From Eledone cirrhosa (taxonomy: Eukaryota), in the NCBI GenBank assembly GCA_964016885.1, contig OZ024747.1, positions 21,514,001-21,578,000 of the forward strand: a DNA stretch of 64,000 nucleotides, in the 5' to 3' direction. The position numbers were made by a program, and so were the translations under genes. The notes below the pieces were generated by a model. That model saw only the letters and a list, made by a program, of their open reading frames with translations, ran no database searches and had not been told where the DNA came from. Within the stretch, counting starts at the first letter, position 1; every line of letters starts with the position of its first letter. Below, piece after piece: positions 23,500 through 60,864 of this stretch.

Positions 23500-26270
23500 G
23501 TAAAAGCCTAAATGGCCAAAGAACACCTGATATTGAGCAGTTGAAGGTGGGCTGAGAGAACTATATCTTCCATAGGACAGCAGACAGTCTGAATGGCTTC
23601 ACATTGTTAAAGTTTTATGTCCCAATTGGCAAGAAGTGGATTAACTCTTTTGATACCAAACCACCTGAAACAGCACTGGATTTATTATACAAAACTACCT
23701 TTTTTAAATTGTTTATACTTATATTATAAACTTACATCATAATTTTATTCTAGAAATATTTCTTAAATAATGATCTAAATACCAGATTACTAAAGAAATA
23801 CTTAGATATATTAAATTCCTTACAATATTTGATTGTGTTCAAACTTAATTGAAATATACTGGCAGACTAATTTCATTAGAAACAAAAGGGTTGATAGATT
23901 GTGGTTTTTGTTGCTTAGCATCATATCAAGCTTGATTGAGCAAATGTGTAATCTACAGTTTGTTTGGGCATGTATCATTTACTATAGCCTCAGGTCATTG
24001 CAAGATTTGCAAGTGAAATTTCATAGACAGAAATTGTTTAGAAGCCTGTCAGATGAGTTGTACCAGTAAGTCAAAAGGCCAGCCATGTTACACACTGTAT
24101 TACACTGAATCTCTCTGACAATTACAGTATAGGTACACCTGTCTGTGGAATGCTCTGACACTTAACATTAACTCGGGAGCACATTGTTCCATTGATCAAA
24201 CAACTGGAACTTGTTGTCAAAACTGACGGTAGTCTATTTTTTCGTTTCCATTATTGCCTGCCAAAGTATTTTAAATTAAATTCTATAAAATAGAAGTAAC
24301 AAATGCATGGTGAAAAAAAATAATGGTATCTTTTTTTTAATTTTAACCCTTTTATTGTCATATTTCTAATTCAATATAATGTACCTGAATTAATTAATGA
24401 AGAATTTGAAGAGATTTACTAAAACTATTAACATAACTTAGTAAAAGGGTCTTATATAAAATTACGTTGAAAGATTTGAATTTACATTGGAACCCTTTAA
24501 AATAAGTAGTCTTTGAGCTAAGAACAGTTTAGGGCAGGTTGGTATCAAAAGGATTAAATTCTCTATTCATAAATCCTTGAAAAGGAAGGGAAAATACATA
24601 GTCTATTTTATTAAAACATTTTTTCATTCTCTCTCTCCTTCTTACTGTTTAGTCAGGGAAGATAGGAGAGGGTGATGCTCATGACCCTTTTCAAGGCCTC
24701 TGAGACAGGTGAAATGGAGGAGAAATATCATCCACAAGCCAAAATTCTGGTCCAAAAGCTTGCAACAGAGCAGACTTTGTTAAAGGCAGCTAAGGGCCAG
24801 ATGGTGGTGTTTAAGTGGAGAATTGATAACTCTTACCATTCTATAATGATTTAAGAGAAAATGTCTAGAACAGGTCTGTTAATTGTGGACAGATCACTGT
24901 GAAAATTTGCTGTAATAGTGGAAAGACTTTGATTTTTAATGTAATGCCGTCATTCATGTTAAAAATAATGTTAGGTATGCATGGTCAATTAATTAAATAA
25001 TAATTAAAAGACAGGTGCAATAAAAAAAATATAAATAAAAATGTTAATTAATTAAATGCAATTAGTAACAGACATCACAAAATATCTTCAAACCAAAATA
25101 TTCTTATCAACTATTAATTCAATTAAATTGTTGATATTTGTCATCATTGATAGAATGTACTGCAGCCAATTTTTTAATGAAAAATATTGAGGAAAAATAA
25201 TCAAGAATAAAAATCAATAACATTAAATAAAATATGTGGATTATTTAAATTCAAACCATGACTTGTTGAAGTAATTAAAGTTATCCTCCTTACATTAGAG
25301 AGTGTGTCACTTCCTGTAAAACTAATGTAAACATTAAGCCTTATGAATTATAAAGTGTTGGGAATGTTTAAAATTTAAAAATATGGAAGTCCCAAATGTA
25401 AAAAATGGCTATAATAACAGTCAATCCTTATAAACAATAGGTGGGAAAGTTGGGTAAATTACCCTTAACCATTTAGCATTTAGCATTTACAGTCAGAAAC
25501 AATCCTATATGAGTGAGACAAAGTCACCGAACCCAACTTGCCTCAAATGGGACAAACCCGGCTAACCTATGATGGCATGGAAGATAGACGTTATATGATG
25601 ATGATGATGATTACTTTATATTTATTAGTTTATTTTCACAGTAAAGGCTTTATTTCATATAATTACCTCACATGATATTGAATCTATGAGATTTTGATAC
25701 TATTTATTTTGAGAACAATACCTTAACATCGGTATGAGTGGCTTGTTACAACCAGTTTGAACAGAAAGAGGTGAATTGTGGCCGGATATGGCCACTTTAA
25801 ATGCTAAAGGGTTAAACAGAAAGAGATGAAAGAATTATGGCCAGATGCTAAAAGGTTAAAGAGGGGTAAAAAAGTAGACAGAGGCACAGACACGTGTTAT
25901 TACAATTATTTTCTACTTTTGGGACTCTCACATTTTAATGTTTGTATTGTACTTCTCAAGACTCTTTTGTTAATATGATTTTGTGTAAAACAGAATGTTA
26001 TAAATTAAAACTTACTCCCAGTCAAACAATTACAGAAACCCACATATACACACAGATATCATCATTACAATCTGAGTTCAAATCCCGCCGAGGTTGACTT
26101 TGCCTTTCATCCTTACGGGGTCGATAAAATAAAGTACCAGTAATGCACTGGGTAATTGCTGGCCTTGTGCCTAAAGTAGAAACAATCATTACCACTGTTT
26201 AACGTCCATTTTCCATGTTGGCTAGGTTTAGACAAAAATGGTCACAAAAATCTTATCATATGGTTATAAT

Positions 26271-26459
26271 TATTTCTACTTTTGGCACAAGGCCAGCAAT
26301 TACCCCAGTGCATTACTGGTGCTTTATTTTATTGACCCCATAAGGATGAAATGCAATGTTAACCTTGGCGGGATTTGAACTCAGAACATAAAGGGCGTAA
26401 CCTTATGCTGCAAAGCATGGTGTCTGATGCTCTACCGATACTGCCAATCAACCACCTTT
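26271..26459 (-). mobile_element. tRNA-derived SINE with Meta-like central domain and 14-bp TSD
   Basis: Minus strand has B-box GAGTTCAAATCCC and CATCCTTATGGGGTCAATAAAATAAAG body; TSD CATATGGTTATAAT at 26257-26270 and 26460-26473. Confidence 0.9.
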
Positions 26460-38275: not shown

Positions 38276-38463
38276 CGGCGGTGGATTGGCAGTATCGGTA
38301 GAGGGTCGGACGCCATGCTTTCCAGCATAGTTACGTCCCTTTACGATCTGAGTTCAAATCCCGCCGAGGTTGACTTTGCCTTTCAGCCTTACAGGGTCGA
38401 TAAAATAAAGTACCAGTAATGTACTGGGTTATTGCTGGCCTTGTGCCTAAAGTAGAAACAATT
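38276..38463 (+). mobile_element. Full-length tRNA-derived Meta-like SINE (other copies ~6465-6635+, 8020-8165-, 12920-13075-, 21840-21980-, 26070-26190+, 36537-36728-, 38920-39135-, 57388-57572-, 59497-59725+, 59742-59932+, 60310-60505-)
   Basis: A-box region GGCAGTATCGGTAGAG, B-box GAGTTCAAATCCC, GCCTTTCA.CCTTACAGGGTCGATAAAATAAAGTACCAG body; TSD ATTATGTGA. Confidence 0.9.
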
Positions 38464-40064
38464 ATGTGATGGTAAAATGACGAAAGTAAAATTTAAAATG
38501 TATAACTACATTATGTAAAGTATGGAACCTAAAACTCAATTAATTTACCAATAAGGAAAAACTCCCCATTATCCATGGTGTTCTTCCTTTACAAAGCAGT
38601 AAGGTGTGTGATTTGACAACGATTTAAATATTTCTTAAGCATTATTAATAAACATTTATCCCATAAATCTACTATGATCATTAATTTTAAGCCTGGAAGG
38701 ATATCAAAGATATAATCAAGATTGTAGATACTTTTTATTGCAAATACTTCTATTATGGAAGATTTCTACTTTATCAAATATACTTTCATTCTCAAATATT
38801 TTTCTTCTTTCAATACAAATGTATATACAGAAGGGATGAATATTTTTGAAGTATCTTACTAATGCATGATGTTCTTTAAAGAGGGTTCATTTGGGGCCAT
38901 GAACACCCTAACTGTAATAACGATTTCTACTTTAGGCACAAGGCCAGCAATTTAGGGGAGGTGAAAGTTGATTAAATCGATCCCAGTGCATTACTGGTAC
39001 TTTATTTTATTGACCCTGTAAGGATGAAAGGCAAAGCTAACCTCGGCGGGATTTGAACTCAAAACATAAAGGTACTTAACACTATGCTGCGAAGCATGTT
39101 GTCTGACGCTCTACCGATTACTGCCAATCCACCACCCTAACTGTAATATGTGCTGAAGAGAAATAACAAAGGTGAAGACTGAAAGTATTTACAATCTCGA
39201 TTATATCTCTGATATCATTTTATAATTAATTTTCTGTGTGAATGCATACATTGTGTGTTTGTATGATTGTTTGATAGGAGGATTATGAATGTCAATGTAT
39301 TGTTAGTATATATGTGTGTGTATCTGTTGTCATATGATTTCATTATATATGTTTGTGCATGTCCTAATTGGATGTGTTTGTTTATATGTGTATGTGTTTG
39401 TCAGGTTTTGTGTGAGCCTGTATGTCAGTATTGTCTCTTTTAATAATAACTATGAATTACTTTAACTCCGTTGGTTTATATAACAAAAACAAAAGATAAA
39501 TTTTGTTCTAAGGATTACATTAAATGAAATATACTGCAAGATATTTTAGATAAAAGGATTTGTGGCAAAAAGAAGATTACTCAAAACAGTTTAACAATAC
39601 AATGGCCTATTCTTGTAAAAACTGAGGAATTCAAAAACAGAAATTCACATGTTCAGTTTTAGTATAATAGAAAATCATGTATATATATAAAATCATATAT
39701 ATATTTATATATGTGTGGGTGGATATGTGTGTGTGCACCAAAAAAGGTCGAAGAATTTTCAGTTATGTCAAGATCTCAACAACCTCTCTAGTGTTGGTGA
39801 CCTACACAATAAACACACCCAGTACACTCTGAAATGTGATTGATGATAGAAAGTATTCAGGTGTAGAAAACTTACCAAACAATGAATTAAGAGGACTCTT
39901 CAGTCCTACCATAGACATGACAACTTCCTTGTTGGTGATCTACATGATAAATACACCAAATACACTCTGTAAAGTAATTGGTGATAGGAAGGGCAACACA
40001 CATATGTGTGTGTATGTGTGTGTGTATGTGTGTGTCTGTGTGTGTCTGTGTGTCTGTGTATGTT

Positions 40065-41170: not shown

Positions 41171-41251
41171 TACTCTGCTATGTATTGAGTACCTTACTCA
41201 CTGTGGTTACCTCCGATTCAACCCGGAATAACTTACCTATATATATATATA

Positions 41252-42265
41252 AATACGAGTTCTAACCATCCACTCTCTATAATTAAATCCATCCCTAGAA
41301 ATGTTTCTCTTAGGATCTCCCGCCTGTCGTCCAACCAACAAACCTTCAAAGAACATGCCAAGTATTATGATGATGCACTTAGGAAAGCCGGTCACCTAGA
41401 TAATATAGAGTATATAGTCAAAGATCACCAAAACACCCAAAATAAATCACATAGGAGTAGAAATAGCACAGAATCACCACCATACATAAACTACCGCAAT
41501 AGACACAATAATAGTCGCACACCACCAAACAGAAGGCGATGTAAGGAGTATATTTGGTACAACCCGGTCTATAACAACTCTATTAAAACCAATCTACCCT
41601 CAAAATTCTTTCGATTAGTTAAAAAACACATAAATATAATAAAATCTTAAACCCTAACACTATTCGACTTTCATATTCAACCGCCCCTAATATTGAACAA
41701 CATATAAAAAAGCTTAACGCAAAACGGTTGTATAAACGCCTTCCAACACATAACAATACACGTAAAACATTAGCTATAACATCACAAAACAACAAACAAC
41801 ATCCTGTCCTACATAAGCAACCTCATCAACCCATCCATGCCAATACAACAACGCAAAATTATAATTGCAACTGTGTCCAACCAGGAATGTGTCCGTTGAA
41901 CAATCAGTGTCTTGAACGCAACATCGTATACAAATGTACTATCGAATTGGATAGACAGAAGTGGTACTATGTGGGATCTACAGCCACCTCCTTCAAATCA
42001 CGCCTTTATAGACATCGTTACTCGATAAAACATGAAAACCAGCGTTATGTAACAACACTCGCAGACAAGGCTTGGCAGCTGCGTGAAAATAACCAACAAT
42101 TTCACCTATTTCCATGGACAGGAATTTTGTAAATTATGTAATGTAGAATTATTTTGTATTATGAAATCCAAAAACATTTTATTAAATAACAGAATAGAGC
42201 GATCGTTATACTGTAACCATCGCTTAAAATCTACATTTTCATATTATAAATACTACCAGGATTGA
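41252..42265 (+). pseudogene. Penelope-like retroelement ORF remnant: RT thumb, linker and GIY-YIG endonuclease (Naiad-like), frameshifted
   Basis: Translates SSNHPLSIIKSIPRNVSLRISRLSS...YYDDALRKAGH; IWYNP; NTIRLSYS; CNCVQPGMCPLNNQCLERNIVYKC...YYVGST..FKSRLYRH; CKLCNVE...LLNNR...CNHR. Confidence 0.88.
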
Positions 42266-43015
42266 ACGCCTGTCTCTATCCCCGTTTGATTGTCAAAATA
42301 GATATTAACATTCTTTATTAGTCTTAATTCTATCAACTCTTCTATTATTTACCTTTTAATACAAACTGCTATAGATAAAATGAGATTTCTGATTTCTTGA
42401 TTCAATTCCCTAATGCATATACCAGCTGGCTACTAGCATTGATGTTATTTAGTAGCAATCGAAATCTCCCCCTTTCCCCAATTGACACTTTATAATTAAT
42501 ACTACTGCACCAAATGACCAGCCCTGTCCACTGTCCAGTTGGTCAAGTAGAGATTAAAATTGGCACTCCCAAAATTCTTATTTAGATTTACTCATGGTAT
42601 TCTCATTAGAAACCCATTATATACTTGTTTAGCAGTAAATTAATTTACCATCTGTCATATACTATCCCCTCTGTTCCTTCCTCCTTTACTAATATAAATA
42701 CTTCAATTTTTCTGATTTTATCCAATTTATCCAAAATCTCTGAAGAAGTGACAACTGATTATACATTTGCTATCGAATACTTGCTAACATTATATGATTA
42801 CGCAAGCAGCGATACATAGGTATTCGGTCTGTTACAGAAACATATGTCAATACCTAATAAATTCCTTTTTTAACAAAAGCACTTTCATTTTATATTCATC
42901 CTTTCTACATTTTCTCCGGAATATAATTTATACTCGTTGAGCAAACCTGCACGTACGCTGTTCATCTCTAACGTAACGATATATTATCACTACATTATTG
43001 ATAACCTGAAATTTT
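42266..43015 (+). mobile_element. 3' UTR, pLTR and tail of the Penelope-like element
   Basis: Follows the ORF stop, contains a hammerhead-like core at 42740-42848, ends in (TA)n. Confidence 0.6.
42740..42848 (+). ncRNA. Hammerhead-like core with ~90 nt stem II region; stem I not formed
   Basis: CTGAAGA A GTGACA ... TGTTAC A GAAAC ATAT GTC. Confidence 0.5.
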
Positions 43016-43042
43016 ATATATATATATATATAGGTGTGTGTG

Positions 43043-43128
<86 letters not shown>

Positions 43129-43972: not shown

Positions 43973-46900
43973 TTTAAAACTAGCTGTTGTGGAACTACTT
44001 ATATATATATCATCATTTCATCATCATTTTTTTTTTTTACGTCCGCTTTTCCCTGCTTGCAAGGGTGGATGGAAACTGATTCTGGCTTGATTTCTACAGC
44101 TGGATGCCCTTCCTAACACCAACCTCATTTACAGTGAGTGCTGGGTGCTTATTTGCCGTGGCACCTCCACAACCACTCTACAATGGAATGATAGGGAGCC
44201 CAGTCCCTATCATCTCATTTCTACAGCTGAGTAAACTGGAGCAATGTGAAATAAACAACACATCAAGGAAACAACACATCACCTGGTCTGAGAATTGAAC
44301 TCACAACCTTTCGATTACAAGCCCAATGCTCTAACCACTGAGCCATGTGCCTCCATATATATATACATATATATTTCTCATTTACTTCATCCTAAAAACA
44401 AAACATTGATAAATCATAATCTATTGGAGTGCAATAACAACACCCTATTCAACAACAAAGCCATTTTAATTGTTGATGACAGCAATAAATAGCCTGAGTT
44501 ATGCAATACACCGTCATGGAAACCCTTTCATCAATTATGGGCAAACTGCAATCCATTTGGCTTTCTACATGACATGCCTAATAAAAAATTACATTGAAAT
44601 TTTTAGTAGTGTAGCATGCCTCATAGTGAGCTATATCTCATGTAGCTTACTGCTCAAAAAAGTTTGCCCCTGCTTGTTCTACAGGTTCAATTGATCTGAG
44701 CTTCAAGAAATAGCAGCCAAATTTCGTTCAAATTACACCCTACCAGAGTAGTTTCCCTAAATTTTCACTGTCAAAGACTTTGTTCACTGAAATGAATTTT
44801 CACAAGGACTATTCCCCTCAGGCTTTTGAAAGGTGTGTCTGTTCAAGCTCACAGACCCACAGTACTACAATACTGCAATATCTCTGCAGACCCACCCAGC
44901 ACTACTTTGCCGACTCCCAGTACTACTACTATAGACATCTAACACTACTTCTGAAGACTCCTCAGCACTGCTATTTCTGTACTATTTCTGCTGACCTCTG
45001 CTCCAAGGTTTGTAAACTGTAAGTTAGGAATTTCTGCCCTACTGTCACAGGAAAGAACATGTTGGATAGTTGTGTCATGGGTTCTCTGACCACAGGAGAA
45101 AAAAACAGCTGGAAAGGTTTTGGCCATAGGTCTACCAAATCAGAGCTGCACTGAACTGAGGCAACAACAATTTTTAAAAAAACCTTTGAAACAATGAATT
45201 AGCCTCTACCTAGTTGTTAAACCTGCTGAAAATAGTAGCCAAACCTCCCACAAATCCCACATTTTTTTCTTCTTCCAAGATGTATTGAATAATATAGTCT
45301 GAGATAAACTAAGTAAAAAGGTATGTTGACCATAGACGAAATATCTTTTGCTTGTAGAGCTACAAAAAGGATACCAGCAAATCTCAAATTCACCAAGGTG
45401 TTATCAATGTAAAATATTATAAGAATGGTAAAGAAGTGCTCAGGTGTTTCATTATACTTTTGAAAATTCTAAGGAATTTACCAAAATGATGCTCCTCACC
45501 AAAACAAATAAATTATCTTTCACAAATTTTTATCAAAAGTTATAAAATAAGTCTGATTTCCTTTTTATATTGTTACTTTCTTTCTTTGGCTCATTGGAGT
45601 TTCTTATAAAACTTTGTATTTCTTTTGAAAGTCTTGAAAAAGAATACAGGTGACTAATTAGCTCCTTAAAATAGCTAAAGTTGTCTAATAATCTGGAAAG
45701 TGGCTAATTATCGTTTTTAAAAAAAGCTGAATATTGTTAATTAGTTTTTTAACAACAAGTTGGTTAATTTTTTAGTATTTTTAAAAGGCAGTCAGTGGCA
45801 GATACCTTTCTATAGAAAAACAAAATGGTTGATATCTTTAATTAATCATTAACTCTCACAGATTTAAACAAATGAAATATAAATTATATAGATTTGATTT
45901 CTAATTTTAAGCACAAAGCCAACAAATTAGGAGAAAAAGCAAAATTGATTAAATCAGCCTTAGCACTTGACAAGAATTTTTTTTTATCAACCCCTGGAAT
46001 GATAAAGAGCAAAGTTGACCACAGCAAGATTTGAACACAGAATGTAAGCAACTAGAAGAAATATTGAGGGGGGGGGGGGGGAGTAGATTGGGCTATTGAG
46101 AGTTAAGTGTCTTGACCATGGACACAAACGAGCACAAATACACACACACACTTAAACACACACACAAGCGCACACACAAGCACACACACACATTCAAACA
46201 TACACACACAAGCAGATACACACATTAATGTATTTTCTCTACCTGAACACTCTAGTTAACAACTCTGTCAATTTGCTGCCTTACAATAGTTCCACTCATT
46301 GTCTTATAGTCTTGAAATAAATATCTCTGATGCCAGAAACATGAGTCACCATTTCTCCTTCACAGCAAATAATGTTGTTACTGTCAGTAGGCACCTCTAA
46401 CAAAATACACCCCCCCACCCCCCACCCCACCCGTCTCACTACCCCCTACCCATCCACACCACCCCCTTAAATGTGAAGTTATGTTGGTACCACAACATCC
46501 AGTCCGAAACAAATGAGGTCGTGTAGGTGTCACGACAAAAAAAACACACAGTCCACGTGGTAATGTGGCCGTGTAGGTAACACGGTAAAAACCTCCCAGT
46601 TCCACACTGTATATGTGGTTGGTGTTAGGAAGGGCATCCAGCCATAGAAAACCCGCCAGACAGTCCTATACGAGCAGGACAACAAATCTTGCCTCAAGTT
46701 GGAAAACTTCCGTCCAAACCCATGCAAGCGTGGAAGATGGACGTTAAATGATGATGATGATGATGATGATGTTTAGCCTCATTTCAGCTATGGTCAACGA
46801 AACACACCTATGGTTGTTCCATTGCTTTCATTTCAGGCATCATGTATCATTTTTACATTATAATGAGTAGAATTAGTGGAACAGCTCCCATTAACTTCTC

Positions 46901-48629: not shown

Positions 48630-48751
48630 GAGGTGAGTTTTATTGTAGTACAATAAAGCAATGCAGATATCAGATAAGAAGCACTCTACAGTTTGTAGGA
48701 CTGGAGTATAAATAATATATAAGATCAAAAGATGGTTAAAAGAGTTCCATG

Positions 48752-48822
48752 TATTTTATTATGCGCATTTCAAAAACAAATATCATCATGCAATAACATT
48801 TGCGTTTTCGTCAGATAAAATA
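48752..48822 (-). ncRNA. Type I hammerhead, family F, minus strand
   Basis: TATTTTAT CTGACGA [stem II] GAAA T GCGC A TA / ATAAAATA; 8-bp stem I, palindromic loop III. Confidence 0.85.
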
Positions 48823-48948
48823 GGGAGACATGATATGAAGGTTAAAACACACTTGTGAATAGTGCAGTTTTAAATCAACATATCAGGATATGTTGATTTA
48901 AAACTGCACTATTCACAAGTGTGTTTTAACCTTCATATCACGTCTCCC

Positions 48949-49019
48949 TATTTTATCTGACGAAAATGCAAATGTTATTGCATGATGATATTTGTTTTTG
49001 AAATGTGCATAATAAAATA
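48949..49019 (+). ncRNA. Type I hammerhead, family F, plus strand
   Basis: TATTTTAT CTGACGA AAATGCAAATGTTA..TGATATTTGTTTTT GAAA T GTGC A TA / ATAAAATA. Confidence 0.8.
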
Positions 49020-49095
49020 CATGGAACTCTTTTAACAATCTTTGATCTTATATATTATATATATATATATATATAATATATAATATATATATATA

Positions 49096-49279: not shown

Positions 49280-49347
<68 letters not shown>

Positions 49348-49349
<2 letters not shown>

Positions 49350-51115
49350 CTGATGAATGTGGAGAACGAATGGGAGAGAGAGAAATTACCCTTAGTAGAT
49401 CCGACAGAGGGACCAGCTATTGAGATTGACGAATATAGGGTCCAAGAGGCGATTAGGGAAATGAAAAATGGTAAGGCTGCTGGACCATTGGGAATAGTTG
49501 CTGAGATGCTGAAGGCATCAGGGGACGTAGGCACCAAACTGGTTGCATGCATCATCAATCAGGCTATATATGGTGGTGTCATACCCAAAGACTGGTGCAG
49601 CAGTATTCTCATAAATTGCTACAAAGGTAAAGGGGATGCTCTGGAGAGGAGCAACTATAGGGGTATAAAACTGATGGATCAGGTTATGAAAGTGGCAGAA
49701 AGGATATTAGCACAACTAATTAGAGAAAGGGTCAAACTATATGAGATGCAGTTTGGTTTTGTACCTGGGAAGAGTACAACAGATGCCCTCTTCTTGGTGA
49801 GACAAATGCAAGAGAGGTTCTTAGAGAAAAATAAGCCACTATACTTAGCCTTTGTTGACCTAGAGAAGGCCTTTGATAGGGTACCCCGATCTGTCATCTG
49901 GTGATCCCTAAGGAAGCTAGGTGTTGAGGAATGGCTTGTGAGGACAGTGCAAACTTTGTGCAGAGGTACTGTCAGTAAAGTCAGGGTAGGAATGGAGTTC
50001 AGTGAGGAATTCCAGATACAAGTAGGAGTACATCAAGGTTCGGTCCTCAGCCTGCTCTTGTTCATTATAGTCCTCCAAGCCATTAAGAGGAGTTTAAGAC
50101 TGGCTGTCCATAGGAACTTCTCTATGCTGACGATCTGGTTCTTATAGCAGAATCAGTAGAGGCGCTAGAGAATAAGTTCTGGCTATGGAAACAGCAGTTG
50201 GAAGCAAGAGGACTGAGAGTGAACCTAGCTAAGACAAAAGTGTTGATGAGTAGAAAAGAGGACAAAACCCTGATTCTGTCAGGGAAATGGCCATGTTTGA
50301 TATGCAGAAAAGGAACTGGCATAAATTCTATAAAATGCACACAATGCAGATCCTGGGTACACAAGAGATGTAGCGGGATAGCAGGCAAACTAACAGGTAG
50401 GGAGAAATATGTATGCAGTAGATGTACAGGGAAATTAGACAGTAGAAGTCACATTGATAGACACATTTTTCAGATGCAGGAGGCGCTATAGAAGTGGTGG
50501 ATAGCTTCCGGTACCTAGGAGATCAGATTAGCATGGGAGGAGGGTGTTCCGAGGCCATAGTATCTAGAATAAGGACGGGTTGGAAGAAGTTTAGGGAGCT
50601 GCTTCCTCTGTTGACGAAGAAGGGTTTCTCCCTGCGTACGAAAGGCCTGTTGTATGATGCCTGTGTGAGGAGCGCGATGCTGCATGGTAGTGAGACATGG
50701 CAGCTACTGCAGAGGATATGCGACGGCTGGAGAGAAATGAGGCAAGCATGCTCCGTTGGATGTGCAGTGTATATGTGCTTGAACAACCCAGCATAAATGT
50801 GTTGAGAGAGAAACTGTGTCTGAGAGGGATAGAATGTAGTGTACGGGAGAGGAGACTGAGGTGGTATGGACATGTGATGCGCATGGAGGATGACCGATGG
50901 GTGAAGAAGTGCCAGGAAATGCCAGTTGAAGGAAGACGTGGTAGAGGTAGACCATGAAAAACATGGGCGGAGGTGGTGAGAACAGACCTCAGATCATTGA
51001 AGCTCACGGTGGAGATGATGAAGGACCGTGACGAGTGGAGAGATGCTGTGCTGAATAAGACCCGTCCCACCCTTGCAAGCAGGAAAAAGCGGACGTAAAA
51101 TGATGATGATGATGA
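49348..51115 (+). pseudogene. 5'-truncated RTE-clade LINE with disrupted reverse transcriptase ORF
   Basis: RT motifs NYRGIKL, QFGFVPGKSTTDA, AFVDLEKAFDRV, GVHQGSVLS, LYADDLVL (50119-50142), FRYLG; internal Cys-rich PHD-like stretch; stop at 49902 and frameshifts; (ATG)n tail. Confidence 0.95.
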
Positions 51116-52586: not shown

Positions 52587-52785
52587 TCGAAATATAATAC
52601 ATGAATGTAATAGATAAAATCCATGGGGCTGAAAATCGTAGTGTTAAGGATAAGTAAAAAGATGGAGAGAGAGAGAGAAACGATTTACTAATATAAACAA
52701 ACCACTATCCTGATGTCTTCCAAAAGTAACGGTCGCATTTTGAAAGGGTACGTCAATGTTTATTTATAAAACTAGTATATATTGT

Positions 52786-52848
52786 ATTTTGTCTGATGAA
52801 GGCATACCATAATTTAACTTGGTATCCTTGAAATATGTATAATGAAAT
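52786..52848 (+). ncRNA. Type I hammerhead, plus strand
   Basis: ATTTTGT CTGATGA AGGCATACCA TAATTTAACT TGGTATCCT T GAAA T ATGT A TA / ATGAAAT; 7-bp stem I with two G-U pairs. Confidence 0.8.
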
Positions 52849-53579
52849 AAATATGGTTTTATAAATATAGTTTCCATTTGTTAATATCGTATATCTACTC
52901 CAAATACTTGTCGAGTGCTTTATATCAGTTATAAAAATATTTACTTGTTGTATCCCAACAATTTAAATAGAACTTTTGCATATATATATATATATATATA
53001 TCATAAAACATGTCTATAGAATCACCAGATAAAATATATACCATTTCCTCTCCAAATTAGCATAATTAACCATATAAAAAATCGAATAGACCAGGCTCTA
53101 AGAATAAGGCTTCTATGAAGAAATCTCCAACAAATTACCGAAACCAGCCCTTTGCGCCGGCTGCAACGGAATATTTATCGAATATTTCGACAGCGTAATC
53201 GCCTAGATATACAGTCAATTAAACAGAATTATGTGTAAAATAAACTAGGAGAAAAGAGAATACATTTATATATATATATATATATAATGGTAAACGGAAA
53301 AGAGAATGCTGACAAATTGTTCACAGTGAAAAATAGTTTAATTAGGAATAAGTGAGAATTAGTAATAGTATTGGTTAGTATTCAGTTTTGGTTTTAAGTT
53401 TTACCGGTTGCGCATTTCTAATGCTTTTCAAAAATAATTTTGAGATAGAGCGTCCGTGATGTTTGCTCTAATATATATATATATATATTGAACAATATAT
53501 ATTGTAGTCGCATATGTAGACAATGTATAATAGACACAGAAACATTTGTCAAAGCAAATAAATTCATAATCTCTTCACG

Positions 53580-53932
53580 CCAACGTTTTATTTTTCTGCG
53601 CATATATTCCGTGATGACGTCCCTCACGCCGGACTTCTGTCTGATGACTTCGCTCCTGATGTGCTCTCTCAACGAGATTCCTAACATTGATCTCTCCATG
53701 GCCCTTTGAGCCGTTACCAGCCTCTGCTCTTCTCTCTTCGTTGTAGACCAAATTTCACTGCCATATAACATTGCAGGTAAAACTGTGCTATTGAAGAGGT
53801 TGGCGCGGGTGGTCTTGTCCAACCCCCTCCCCCCTTGAGCACATCCCTTATGCCGTTGAACGCCTTCTATCTGGACCTTACTCTCCGCCAGATCTCCCTC
53901 TCAATGTCTCGGCGCATGTTCACTTCTTGTCC
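53580..53932 (-). mobile_element. RTE LINE fragment from a different lineage (RTE-1-like C-terminal region)
   Basis: LFNSTVLPAMLYGSEIWSTTKREEQRLVTAQRAMERSMLGISLREHIRSEVIRQKSGVRDVI. Confidence 0.85.
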
Positions 53933-54099
53933 ACCTCTTCTATTTCATTACCGCCAATCATGTCACCTGGTTCATACTTCAGTATGCAGATTGGAGCACT
54001 CGACGAAGTACGCAGGTTGGTTTGTTTACTCCGGAGTAATGTAAAATAATTAAGTCAAATATATAAAATTTGGCTTCGTTTATTACAAATTATAGATAT

Positions 54100-54154
54100 A
54101 CTGCTATATATATTTCGGTGACAGCCATCATTGGCTGTGACCTCTTCAGGCAGT
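54100..54154 (-). ncRNA. Type I hammerhead, minus strand
   Basis: Exact reverse complement of 54192-54246. Confidence 0.85.
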
Positions 54155-54191
54155 CCGAATTGGTGTGGGAAAGACAGGTACATGAATTCGG

Positions 54192-54246
54192 ACTGCCTGA
54201 AGAGGTCACAGCCAATGATGGCTGTCACCGAAATATATATAGCAGT
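54192..54246 (+). ncRNA. Type I hammerhead, plus strand
   Basis: ACTGC CTGAAGA GGT C ACAGCCA ATGA TGGCTGT C ACC GAAA T ATAT A TA / GCAGT. Confidence 0.88.
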
Positions 54247-54297
54247 ATATCTATAATTTGTAATAAACGAAGCCAAATTTTACATATTTGACTTAAT

Positions 54298-54341
<44 letters not shown>

Positions 54342-54348
<7 letters not shown>

Positions 54349-54879
54349 TAAAAAAATAATGAATAAAACAATGAAACAGTTCCTTATATTAAACAAAAAA
54401 AGTTCATTATTTAACGATCGTTTCTAGGACATATATGTGTTAGAATTGGCATGCATATTCAACAGATCTATGTACAAAATTATACAAAATTATACAAACT
54501 ATCAAATAGAATATACATACCAACACATACATATGCCGTCTTCAGAAATAATGAAGACGGCATATGTATGTGTTGGTATGTATATTCTATTTGATAGTTT
54601 GTATAATTTTGTATAATTTTGTACATAGATCTGTTGAATATGCATGCCAATTCTAACACATATATGTCCTAGAAACGATCGTTAAATAATGAACTTTTTT
54701 TGTTTAATATAAGGAACTGTTTCATTGTTTTATTCATTATTTTTTTAATATTTTATCTTGACTCTGTTTTCCGTTTATCTTTCACCGAAAGTGATTTTTG
54801 AATGCATCTCTTCTTTCCATGATATCCGGATTACATTGAGTTCTTCATACGGATTGGACACTACCGTAAACTCTTGGTA

Positions 54880-54881
<2 letters not shown>
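54342..54881. mobile_element. Foldback Penelope-like end (~200 bp perfect arms 54342-54544 / 54552-54755, ~125 nt tail on the right)
   Basis: Inverted repeat read directly; TA flanks. Confidence 0.85.
54406..54552 (-). ncRNA. Type I hammerhead with ~115 nt stem II domain
   Basis: Minus strand ATTATTT CTGAAGA C GGCATATGTATGTGTTGG ... CTAACACATATATGTCC TA GAAAC GATC GTT / AAATAAT. Confidence 0.75.
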
Positions 54882-54911
<30 letters not shown>

Positions 54912-54916
<5 letters not shown>

Positions 54917-55310
54917 ATCAAAAGATGGTTAAAAGAGTTCCATGTATTTTATTATGCGTATTTCAAAAACAAATATCATCATGCAATAACATTTGTGTTT
55001 TCGTCAGATAAAATAGGAAGACATGATATGAAGGTTAAAATACACTTGTGAATAGTGCAGTTTTAAATCAACATATTCACAAGTGTATTTTAACCTTCAT
55101 ATCATGTCTTCCTATTTTATCTGACGAAAACACAAATGTTATTGCATGATGATATTTGTTTTTGAAATGCGCATAATAAAATACATGGAACTCTTTTAAC
55201 CATCTTTTGATCTTATATATTATTTATACTCCAGTCCTACAAACTGTAGAGTGATTCTTATCCGATATCTGCATTGCTTTATTGTACTACAATAAAACTC
55301 ACCTCCTACA
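54912..55310. mobile_element. Foldback Penelope-like end, family F copy 2, with hammerheads at 54945-55015(-) and 55113-55183(+)
   Basis: Highly similar to 48626-49058, reversed, with a different fold point. Confidence 0.85.
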
Positions 55311-55974: not shown

Positions 55975-56397
55975 AAAGAATAGAGGTGTAACACACAAGT
56001 TATTATATATTGGTAAACGGAATAGAAAATGCTGACAAATTGTTCACAGTTGAAAAATGGTTTAATTAGGAATAAAAGAGTATTAGTGATTGTATGGGTT
56101 AGTATTCAGTTGTGGTTTTAAGTTTTTAAGTTTTTACCGGTTGCGCATTTCTAAATGCTTTTCAAAAATAATTTTGAGATAGAGTGTCCGTGCTGTTTGC
56201 TCAGATCAGAACAAACAGCACGGACACTCTATCTCAAAATTATTTTTGAAAAGCATTTAGAAATGCGCAACCGGTAAAAACTTAAAAGCTTAAAACCACA
56301 ACTGAATACTAACCCATACAATCACTAATACTCTTTTATTCCTAATTAAACCATTTTTCAACTGTGAACAATTTGTCAGCATTTTCTATTCCGTTTA

Positions 56398-56404
<7 letters not shown>
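55971..56404. mobile_element. Foldback element, family G (~190 bp arms; single-arm copy 53286-53470)
   Basis: Inverted repeat 56006-56199 / 56212-56404, ~35 nt tail, TA flanks. Confidence 0.8.
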
Positions 56405-56432
<28 letters not shown>

Positions 56433-56435
<3 letters not shown>

Positions 56436-56601
56436 TACGTTATTCCGGGTTGAATCGGAGGTAACCACAGTAAGTAAGGTACTCAATACATTGCAGAGTA
56501 TAAAAGTTTTAATATAGATGAGATTCTACAGGACTAGAACTGTTTCATTCTTTAGAAATCATATGATTTCTAAAGAATGAAACAGTTCTAGTCCTGTAGA
56601 A

Positions 56602-56641: not shown

Positions 56642-56876
56642 GTAATAATAATAAATATGAAGACTAAAATCTAAAGAGGGCTCGATAAGGATAAATATAT
56701 ATCAAATATATAAGAACAGTAGACCAAATATTTATTAAAATAACAGATTAAAGTTTAAGCAAAGAATCGCTGCTTTCACCCTTAACGGGATCTTCTGAAG
56801 TTAGTTTCTGAAGATCCCGTTAAGGGTGAAAGCAGCGATTCTTTGCTTAAACTTTAATCTGTTATTTTAATAAATA
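56640..56876. mobile_element. Foldback Penelope-like end, family A
   Basis: Arms ~56728-56795 / 56810-56877 plus ~87 nt tail. Confidence 0.8.
56803..56853 (+). ncRNA. Type I hammerhead, family A
   Basis: AGTTT CTGAAGA T CCC GTTAA GGG T GAAA GCAG CGATTCT TTGC TT / AAACT. Confidence 0.7.
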
Positions 56877-56964
56877 TATATATTATATATATATTATATA
56901 TATATATTATATATATATATATATTATATATATATATATTATATATATATATATATTATATATA

Positions 56965-59260: not shown

Positions 59261-60864
59261 CATACATACATACATACATACATACATACATACATACATA
59301 CATACATACATACATACATACATACATTCCAGCTTAGTTTATCTTTTAAATATATACAAGTTAAGAACTGAGATCGATATAATCGACTTTGCCCTTCCCC
59401 TAAATTGATAGCCTTTAGCTAATGTTAGAAAAACAGCTGGATCAATTTCATTTAAAATAAATAGGATGAGGCATGCTATATATCATTATATCATTCTGCG
59501 GTGGATTGGCAGTATCGGTAGAGCGACAAACACCATACTTTGCGGCATAGAGTTATAACCCTTTACATTCTGAGTACAAATCCCGTCAAAGGTCGATAAA
59601 ATAAAGCACCAGCATCCTTACAAGGTCGATTAAATAAAGTACCAGTAATGTACTGGATTCGATTTGATTGACTCCCACCCACCCCCTCAAATCGCAGGCC
59701 CTGAGCCTATAGCAGAAATCATTATATTATTATAGGGAACAGGCGGTGAACTGGCAGTATCGGTAGAGGGTCGGACGCCATGCTTTGCAGCACAGAGTTA
59801 CGCCCCTTTACGGTCTGAGTTCAAATCCCGCCGAGGTTAATTGTGCCTTTCATCCTTACGGGGTCGATAAAATAAAGTACCAGTAATACACTGGGGTAAT
59901 TGCTGGCCTTGTGCCAAAAGTAGAAACAATTATTATATTAAAACAGCTCGTATCAAACACCGAAAATTTAATTATCTTAAAATGCTACTCTAGATCGTAA
60001 AGTATTTTTGCAACTTTCCATAAAGAGTTGCCTACCTTGAATTATTGATATTATTATTGCTTATTTATTTATTTGTTTATTTATTTAATTATTTAATTAT
60101 TTAATTATAATCCTCTCTTGCATTATTAATATTTCTTTTTAAACATGTGATTAATTTTTCGAAATTTCTGACAATTAATAGGGATGTTTTTTCTGTGTAT
60201 CTTCTGATGTATCTTCTGTGTTTATCAGATACAAACATACATGATGGCTGCCCCCTCGTTATCGAGTATGGCCATTGCACGAAAATAAATAAATAATAAT
60301 AACGACAATAATAATTGCTTCTACTTTTGGCACAAGGCCAGCAATTATCCCAGTGTATTACTGGTATTTTATTTTATCAACCTCGTAAGGATGAAAGGCG
60401 AAGTTAACCTCGGCGGGATTTGAACTCAGATCATAAAGGGCCGTAACTCTTTGCTGCAAAGCATAGCGTCCGACCCTCTAGCGATACTGCCAATCCATCG
60501 CCCTTGATAATAACAACAATAATAATAATAATAATATATATATACAACCATACATACATACATATATACATGCATATATATACATACATACATACATACA
60601 TAAAACCATACATACATGCATACACACAAACATACATACATACATACAACCATACATACATACATACAACCCTACATACATACATGCATGCATGCATACA
60701 TACAACCACACATGCATACAGCCATACATACATATATACATACATACATACAACCATATATACAAACATACAACCATACAACCATACATACACACAACCA
60801 TACATACATACATACACACCCACACACACACCTCACATACACACACATACATACAAACATACAT

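What the first reader, a model, noticed from the sequence alone, without database searches (positions are those of the whole stretch)
53935..54304. Foldback unit with identical complete hammerheads on both strands
Seen: 120-bp inverted arms each contain a full hammerhead (5-bp stem I, 10-bp stem II, ATAT loop III) pointing outward. A transcript from either strand carries a ribozyme plus its exact antisense. Inference: it folds either as a rod-like dsRNA that blocks the ribozyme or as the active hammerhead. This resembles two-polarity viroid-like RNAs but is more simply explained by an inverted pLTR integration.
Basis: partly seen in the sequence, partly recalled or inferred. Interest (0 to 1): 0.75.

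Follow-up and report, generated by a model that had tools for sequence, protein, structure and literature searches.

The report
Head-to-head Penelope retrotransposon stub
This DNA hairpin is two short copies of the end of a Penelope-type jumping gene joined head to head, a layout common in this genome and already described; it was likely made in one insertion by copying the RNA onto both cut DNA strands, and its two ribozyme motifs are predicted to be locked inside the hairpin.

Summary
In detail: 120-nt arms (54042-54161, 54185-54304; one mismatch) each carry an identical minimal type I hammerhead, pointing outward. The unit is the pseudo-LTR of a Hydra-clade Penelope-like element: in G000 it follows a GIY-YIG endonuclease in 19 of 25 loci and precedes the ORF start in two. 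The core has 610 exact matches; about a third of sampled loci carry two outward hammerheads, but this joint is unique. Arms end at two fixed sites 92 nt apart, and 60 of 62 classifiable foldbacks pair one long with one short arm. Either arm may reach farther 5', which argues against snap-back of one cDNA. Best model (inferred): both target strands prime cDNA at two internal start sites, and the cDNAs are joined by microhomology. Forming the ribozyme costs a predicted 83 kcal/mol in either read-through RNA. No viroid-like or retrozyme feature was found. The layout is published; this scan noted the same kind in at least 20 genomes and many times in this one. Ordinary locus; the family statistics bear on an open mechanism.

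The parts
53976..54182 (-). Long arm: unit positions q92 to about q298 of the 324-nt pLTR end (q numbering on natural copy L025); lacks the last 26 nt of the usual long end
   Evidence: 98.5% identity to L025
53976..54041 (-). One-sided tail (q233-298 of a 92-nt tail), absent from the other arm
54100..54154 (-). Minimal type I hammerhead motif, predicted cut between 54105 and 54104
54162..54184 (.). 23-nt loop: 21 nt of the long arm (q92-112) plus 2 extra bases; joint unique in G000
54185..54304 (+). Short arm q113-232, ending at the family's short end
54192..54246 (+). Minimal type I hammerhead motif, predicted cut between 54241 and 54242
54303..54342 (.). (TA)n target microsatellite
53560..53975 (-). 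Left flank, not part of the element: broken LINE-like reading frame (RTE-type by recalled motif; no Pfam match above cut-off)

Best explanation
The foldback is a stub insertion of a Hydra-clade Penelope-like retrotransposon: two 5'-truncated copies of its hammerhead-bearing pseudo-LTR sit head to head beside a TA repeat, likely made in one event in which both cut target strands primed cDNA from the element's RNA. Inferred steps: the endonuclease cuts both strands of (TA)n; one 3' end primes at the far site (q324), the other at the near site (q232); both cDNAs run toward the RNA 5' end (often reaching q1, the likely transcription start) or stop early; their 3' ends anneal over a few bases and each strand is filled in on the other. 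The two outward hammerheads are a by-product, predicted to be sequestered in any read-through RNA, and this copy lacks q1, so it is probably dead.
For: Shown: unit lies 0.9-1.4 kb after the endonuclease in 19 of 25 loci and just before the ORF start in L183 and L184. Two fixed 3' ends: 119 long, 118 short, 16 other of 253 arms; TA-like flank after 69 of 119 and 82 of 118. Of 99 head-to-head joints, 62 had both arms at a fixed end and 60 of these were long+short. The short arm reaches farther 5' in 28, the long in 22, tie in 10; in 9 the long arm is tail only; arm divergence does not differ between the classes (p=0.82). The same joint occurs with arm roles swapped (L015 versus L101). Arms of one insertion differ by 4.4% (36 loci), arms of different insertions by 7.4%. 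Clean joints overlap by 3.0 nt on average (22 joints; 1.9 without the q1|q1 ones) against 0.7 expected. A second young family repeats the pattern in 10 of 12 pairs. In vitro, a Poseidon protein cuts and extends both strands from two internal start sites that match the genomic tail (PMC11167929).
Against: 37 of 99 joints have an arm ending at neither fixed site, this locus among them (q298). Only 22 of 95 joints could be resolved cleanly; the rest showed apparent gaps, partly from substitutions against the reference. One twin locus (L067/L068) is counted twice, so 59 of 61; two 'short farther' cases (L028, L057) read better as q1|q1 folds with a small deletion. Two large pairs of the second family are long+long (L155, L157). 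Ten joints sit at or near the same point on both arms, several at the 8-nt palindrome at q1, which also fits self-priming. Shared variants could come from later arm homogenisation. No empty target site, no intact ORF of this family and no RNA data were seen.
Confidence: 0.7

Rival explanations
1. Same origin, but by self-priming: one cDNA (or an antisense RNA) folds back on a palindrome or microhomology and copies itself; the endonuclease trims the copy at q232, and later central deletions make the joints uneven.
For: Proposed in PMC3846280 from palindromes at inverted junctions; EN-mediated resolution is suggested for the tail in PMC8557442. q1 lies in an 8-nt palindrome and 10 of 60 joints are ties. 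In this locus the long arm does contain the short arm, and arms share variants.
Against: In 28 of 60 pairs each arm holds sequence the other lacks; 9 have a tail-only long arm, one against a short arm reaching q-280; these are not older than the rest. Solo short-ended copies are common.
Confidence: 0.2
2. A functional two-polarity ribozyme RNA or self-copying foldback unit (viroid- or retrozyme-like) that switches between rod and active hammerhead.
For: Both cores are intact here; two outward hammerhead regions occur in 28 of 86 and 19 of 67 sampled loci.
Against: Joint unique in 3.0 Gb; joints scattered over the unit; 82.8 kcal/mol barrier on both strands against 3.5 for a single arm; both cores intact in only 8 of 19 foldbacks not selected on the core; no head-to-tail monomer array here; no 5'-end pile-up at the cut site (3 of 95 arms at q171-176).
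Confidence: 0.03
3. Assembly or read artefact (fold-back chimera).
For: No laid read or contig bridged the joint, though these runs could not be expected to prove absence.
Against: The arms differ at one base, have a 23-nt loop, and the short arm ends at the family's fixed end beside (TA)n; 99 distinct joints share the same layout.
Confidence: 0.03
4. Two independent insertions landed next to each other in opposite orientation.
For: The window shows that (TA)n attracts repeated insertions.
Against: No TA spacer at the joint; long+short pairing in 60 of 62 against half expected (p=4e-16); arms are closer to each other than to other insertions.
Confidence: 0.04

Closest known systems
Hydra clade of C-terminal EN+ Penelope-like elements (Craig et al. 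2021, PMC8557442; section 11 and supplement passages read)
   Same: C-terminal GIY-YIG without CCHH, CxCX5C linker, CxxC and CxH motifs, (TA)n target, hammerhead in the pLTR, inverted 5'-truncated copy with one-sided tail.
   Different: Tail is 92 nt (124 nt in the second family) instead of 30-40 nt and lies in the 5' UTR about 58 nt before the ATG; RWR for RWK; hammerhead differs from the one listed for Hydra-1_Obim; this locus has no coding sequence.
Poseidon element PAc of Anolis (Frangieh et al. 2024, PMC11167929; parts 1-2 of 4 read)
   Same: Two fixed ends downstream of the hammerhead, AT-rich target, uncleaved RNA as main template.
   Different: Other clade; start sites inside the ORF and closer together; in the parts read, the paper does not explain head-to-head pairs.
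Inverted-pLTR insertions of Adineta vaga Penelope (Arkhipova et al. 2013, PMC3846280; passages read)
   Same: Head-to-head pLTRs, tail on one arm, palindrome and Inr-like motif at the pLTR 5' end.
   Different: That paper favours self-priming; no TSD can be read here because the target is (TA)n.
Minimal hammerheads of PLEs (Cervera and de la Pena 2014, PMC4209133; passages read)
   Same: Type I, 5-bp helix I, long helix II, short palindromic helix III, expected to cut only as a dimer.
   Different: The two copies here are on opposite strands, so they cannot form the cis dimer.
Non-LTR retrozymes (bioRxiv 10.64898/2026.07.22.740005, part 1 of 5 read; PMC7229834, listing only)
   Same: Short, non-coding, type I hammerhead, PLE-derived.
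   Different: No tandem monomer array; the unit continues into a coding PLE.

Membership tests
EN+ Penelope-like element (pLTR stub) | Unit is both 3' of a GIY-YIG ORF and 5' of the ORF start (pseudo-LTR) | tested here: met
   19 of 25 endonuclease loci; L183, L184
EN+ Penelope-like element (pLTR stub) | Inverted 5'-truncated copy with one-sided tail | tested here: met
   60 of 62 long+short; tail 92 nt, longer than published
EN+ Penelope-like element (pLTR stub) | Hammerhead motif in the pLTR | tested here: met
EN+ Penelope-like element (pLTR stub) | Target site duplication | not testable with these tools
   Target is (TA)n and the left end is truncated; no empty allele
Hydra clade | CxCX5C linker, CxxC and CxH motifs, no CCHH | tested here: met
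   Translations of L163, L167, L173 against section 11
Hydra clade | RWK and DKT motifs | tested here: inconclusive
   This family shows RWR and DKI or a frameshift at the site; the 47%-identical second family has RWK and DKT
Hydra clade | (TA)n insertion preference | tested here: met
   151 of 237 fixed ends have a TA-like flank
Hydra clade | Placement in the RT phylogeny | not tested
   Reference proteins were seen only in the supplement text; no tree built
Neptune clade (my first label) | CX2-5CxxC linker and CCHH motif | tested here: not met
Non-LTR retrozyme | Head-to-tail tandem monomers each with a hammerhead | tested here: not met
   None at this locus; sampled loci are solo or head-to-head
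Non-LTR retrozyme | Abundant circular RNA | not testable with these tools
   No RNA holder listed
Viroid-like RNA with ribozymes in both polarities | Ribozyme formable in each polarity of a replicating unit conserved as a whole | tested here: not met
   Unique joint; 82.8 kcal/mol barrier
Active hammerhead ribozyme | Self-cleavage | not testable with these tools
   Motif and energies only

The most novel reading that the evidence does not exclude
Penelope-like elements integrate without a LINE-type second-strand step: one capped, uncleaved RNA (or two RNAs of one source) is copied from two fixed internal start sites onto both ends of a double-strand cut, and the two cDNAs are joined by microhomology. 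This one rule would yield the inverted repeat, the one-sided tail, the tail-only inversions and the mass of stubs that stop at the transcription start.
Probability: 0.55. Interest if true: 0.6.

Novelty: new member of a known kind. Interest (0 to 1): 0.28.

Why it matters
The locus itself is an ordinary by-product. The family matters as a record of integration: how Penelope-like elements make their inverted repeats and tails is called undefined in PMC8557442. The near-strict long+short pairing and the symmetric truncation give a sharp prediction for the existing in vitro system. I did not find the double-priming model stated in five library searches, but that library lacks most subscription papers, and other agents of this scan have proposed it many times. 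A side effect worth checking is that a third of these loci would yield long double-stranded RNA if read through.

Tried and rejected
Rfam at gathering score: only a tRNA-like match. Pfam: no match above cut-off for the two window PLE frames, the LINE-like flank or the 782-aa ORF; the protein search gave 44 relatives at 28-37% identity, nearly all unnamed. 'Stand-alone 324-nt non-autonomous unit' (my reading): rejected, the unit runs on into an endonuclease. 'Neptune type' (in my notes): rejected for Hydra. An upstream second hammerhead defining q1: no stem I by inspection, dropped. Pile-up of 5' ends at the ribozyme cut: not seen in the set that could show it. Cap-G signature at q1: 3 of 12 TA-flanked copies have G (background 1.5%; p=0.02 at an assumed 5%), 9 of 49 overall with some explained by the partner arm: a hint only. 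Similarity of the unit to the 3' end of the second family: 4 of 500 shuffles reached the score, weak. Missing tail piece q299-324 not found in 50-58 kb. No RNA holder listed. Reads and contigs of 7 runs did not bridge the joint; not informative.

Full report
Observation. The foldback is real: arms 54042-54161 and 54185-54304, 120 nt with one mismatch, 23-nt loop, z-score -32. Each arm carries the same minimal type I hammerhead, pointing outward, with predicted cuts before 54242(+) and 54104(-). Stem III is 2 bp inside an 8-nt palindrome and is open in the monomer MFE; such motifs are reported to cut weakly and only as dimers (PMC4209133, passages). The element begins near 53976; the stretch to its left is a broken LINE-like frame (the RTE label is recalled, Pfam gave nothing).

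What the unit is. G000 (3.0 Gb) holds 610 exact matches to the 37-nt core and 548 to a 35-nt stretch behind it, with none for the reversed controls; these are lower bounds. With natural copy L025 as ruler (q1-q324; core q125, cut after q169), this locus is a long arm q92-298 on the minus strand and a short arm q113-232 on the plus strand. Upstream of q1, 35 of 253 arms continue, and L025 runs on into a GIY-YIG endonuclease. A search with that endonuclease DNA gave 25 loci; by my count 19 have the unit downstream in the same orientation (L158 is the query's own place), and in L183 and L184 the unit or its tail stands before the ORF start, the ATG about 58 nt after q324. The unit is therefore the pseudo-LTR of a Penelope-like family. 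Its protein pieces show CxCX5C, CxxC and CxH and no CCHH, the Hydra-clade pattern (PMC8557442 section 11; alignments in its supplement). I first called it Neptune-type; notes prompted the check. No intact ORF of this family was seen among the regions fetched.

Architecture across copies. I sampled the first listed pattern hits, mainly on contigs C1 and C2 (90 of 610 and 70 of 548 fetches, plus 30 from the DNA search). Of 253 distinct arms, 119 end at about q324, 118 at about q232 and 16 elsewhere, mostly on (TA)n. Of 99 head-to-head joints, 60 are long+short, 1 long+long, 1 short+short and 37 have an arm ending elsewhere, this locus included; one twin locus is counted twice. Two outward hammerhead regions occur in 28 of 86 and 19 of 67 loci (a few places are in both sets). 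The exact joint of this locus occurs once. So double-hammerhead foldbacks are common, but each is built anew.

Mechanism. A single cDNA that snaps back can only give a second arm contained in the first. Here the short arm reaches farther 5' in 28 of 60 pairs, the long in 22, and 10 tie; in 9 the long arm is tail only; the classes do not differ in arm divergence (p=0.82, 21 versus 16 pairs). L015 and L101 use the same joint with roles swapped. Arms of one insertion are closer (4.4%) than arms of different insertions (7.4%) and share rare variants, so both came from one source. The 22 of 95 joints that resolved cleanly overlap by 3.0 nt on average against 0.7 expected. This fits priming from both target strands at two internal start sites, as shown in vitro for an Anolis Poseidon (PMC11167929, parts 1-2 of 4), followed by annealing of the two cDNA ends; the joining step is my inference. 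A second young family, with a copy in this window, has the same two ends (124-nt tail) and 10 of 12 pairs long+short, 2 long+long. The published self-priming model (PMC3846280, passages) plus later central deletion is not excluded, and fits the ties at the q1 palindrome.

The 5' boundary. 81 of 253 arms start at q-10 to q5. q1 sits in an initiator-like context (consensus recalled), and the Drosophila Penelope promoter lies in the pLTR (PMC2377424, passages), so q1 is probably the RNA start; stubs would then be cDNAs primed in the upstream pLTR that run off the RNA. An extra G before q1 in 3 of 12 TA-flanked copies hints at a cap but is weak. Only 3 of 95 arms in the set not selected on the core start at q171-176, so cleaved RNA is not the main template.

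The ribozymes. In a read-through RNA of either strand the antisense arm comes first; the best fold with the hammerhead formed is 82.8 kcal/mol above the rod, against 3.5 for a single arm. Core positions vary by 4.3% and others by 5.3% across 77 arms, and both cores are intact in 8 of 19 unselected foldbacks: decay, with little sign of selection. Both arms here lack q1. A two-polarity functional RNA is unlikely; expression could not be tested.

Comparison and verdict. Inverted pLTRs with a one-sided tail and hammerheads are described (PMC8557442, passages; PMC3846280). What differs here is the long tail in the 5' UTR and the counts. Searches found no paper stating the double-priming model; the bioRxiv retrozyme paper was read in part 1 of 5 and its supplements are closed. 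The scan's own notes report this kind in at least 20 genomes and repeatedly in this one; they are not independent evidence. New member of a known kind; interest 0.28.

Noticed in passing
window 54340-54880, 54908-55310, 56004-56500, 56728-56877, 48690-49043: Five more foldbacks of four other families around (TA)n; three show a one-sided tail; two of one family carry two hammerheads. The 54340 unit has perfect 205-nt arms and, by inspection, a hammerhead-like motif with a stem II of about 110 nt.
   Followed up: partly
window 41246-43050 (+): 5'-truncated, frameshifted copy of a young Hydra-type family (97-98% identical copies, 782-aa ORF in L154, 49005 first-look candidates including other families); its hammerhead-like motif has a long stem II and no clear stem I.
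   Followed up: partly
L184: A whole coding copy flanked by two tail pieces q284-324, followed by an inverted copy of the ORF start: a circularly permuted or rearranged layout.
   Followed up: no
L119:1160-2483: Two short arms enclose a 1.3-kb nested palindrome of unrelated repeats with a second foldback at its centre.
   Followed up: no
L025 about 60-20 nt upstream of q1: A CUGAGGA ... GAAA stretch resembling a decayed duplicate of the hammerhead, without stem I.
   Followed up: partly
window 26071-26385, 38349-39061, 59752-60492: Inverted pairs of a different short repeat with 150-570 nt spacers, pointing inward.
   Followed up: no
window 52785-52850 (+): A solo hammerhead motif of another family.
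   Followed up: no
window 49281-50796 (+): Broken LINE reverse-transcriptase frames.
   Followed up: no
window 44288-44345 (-): Partial tRNA-like match, possibly a SINE head.
   Followed up: no
L034/L035 and L067/L068: Pairs of loci 0.6-1.0 Mb apart on C1 with the same insertion and flanks: segmental duplication or haplotype duplication in the assembly.
   Followed up: no
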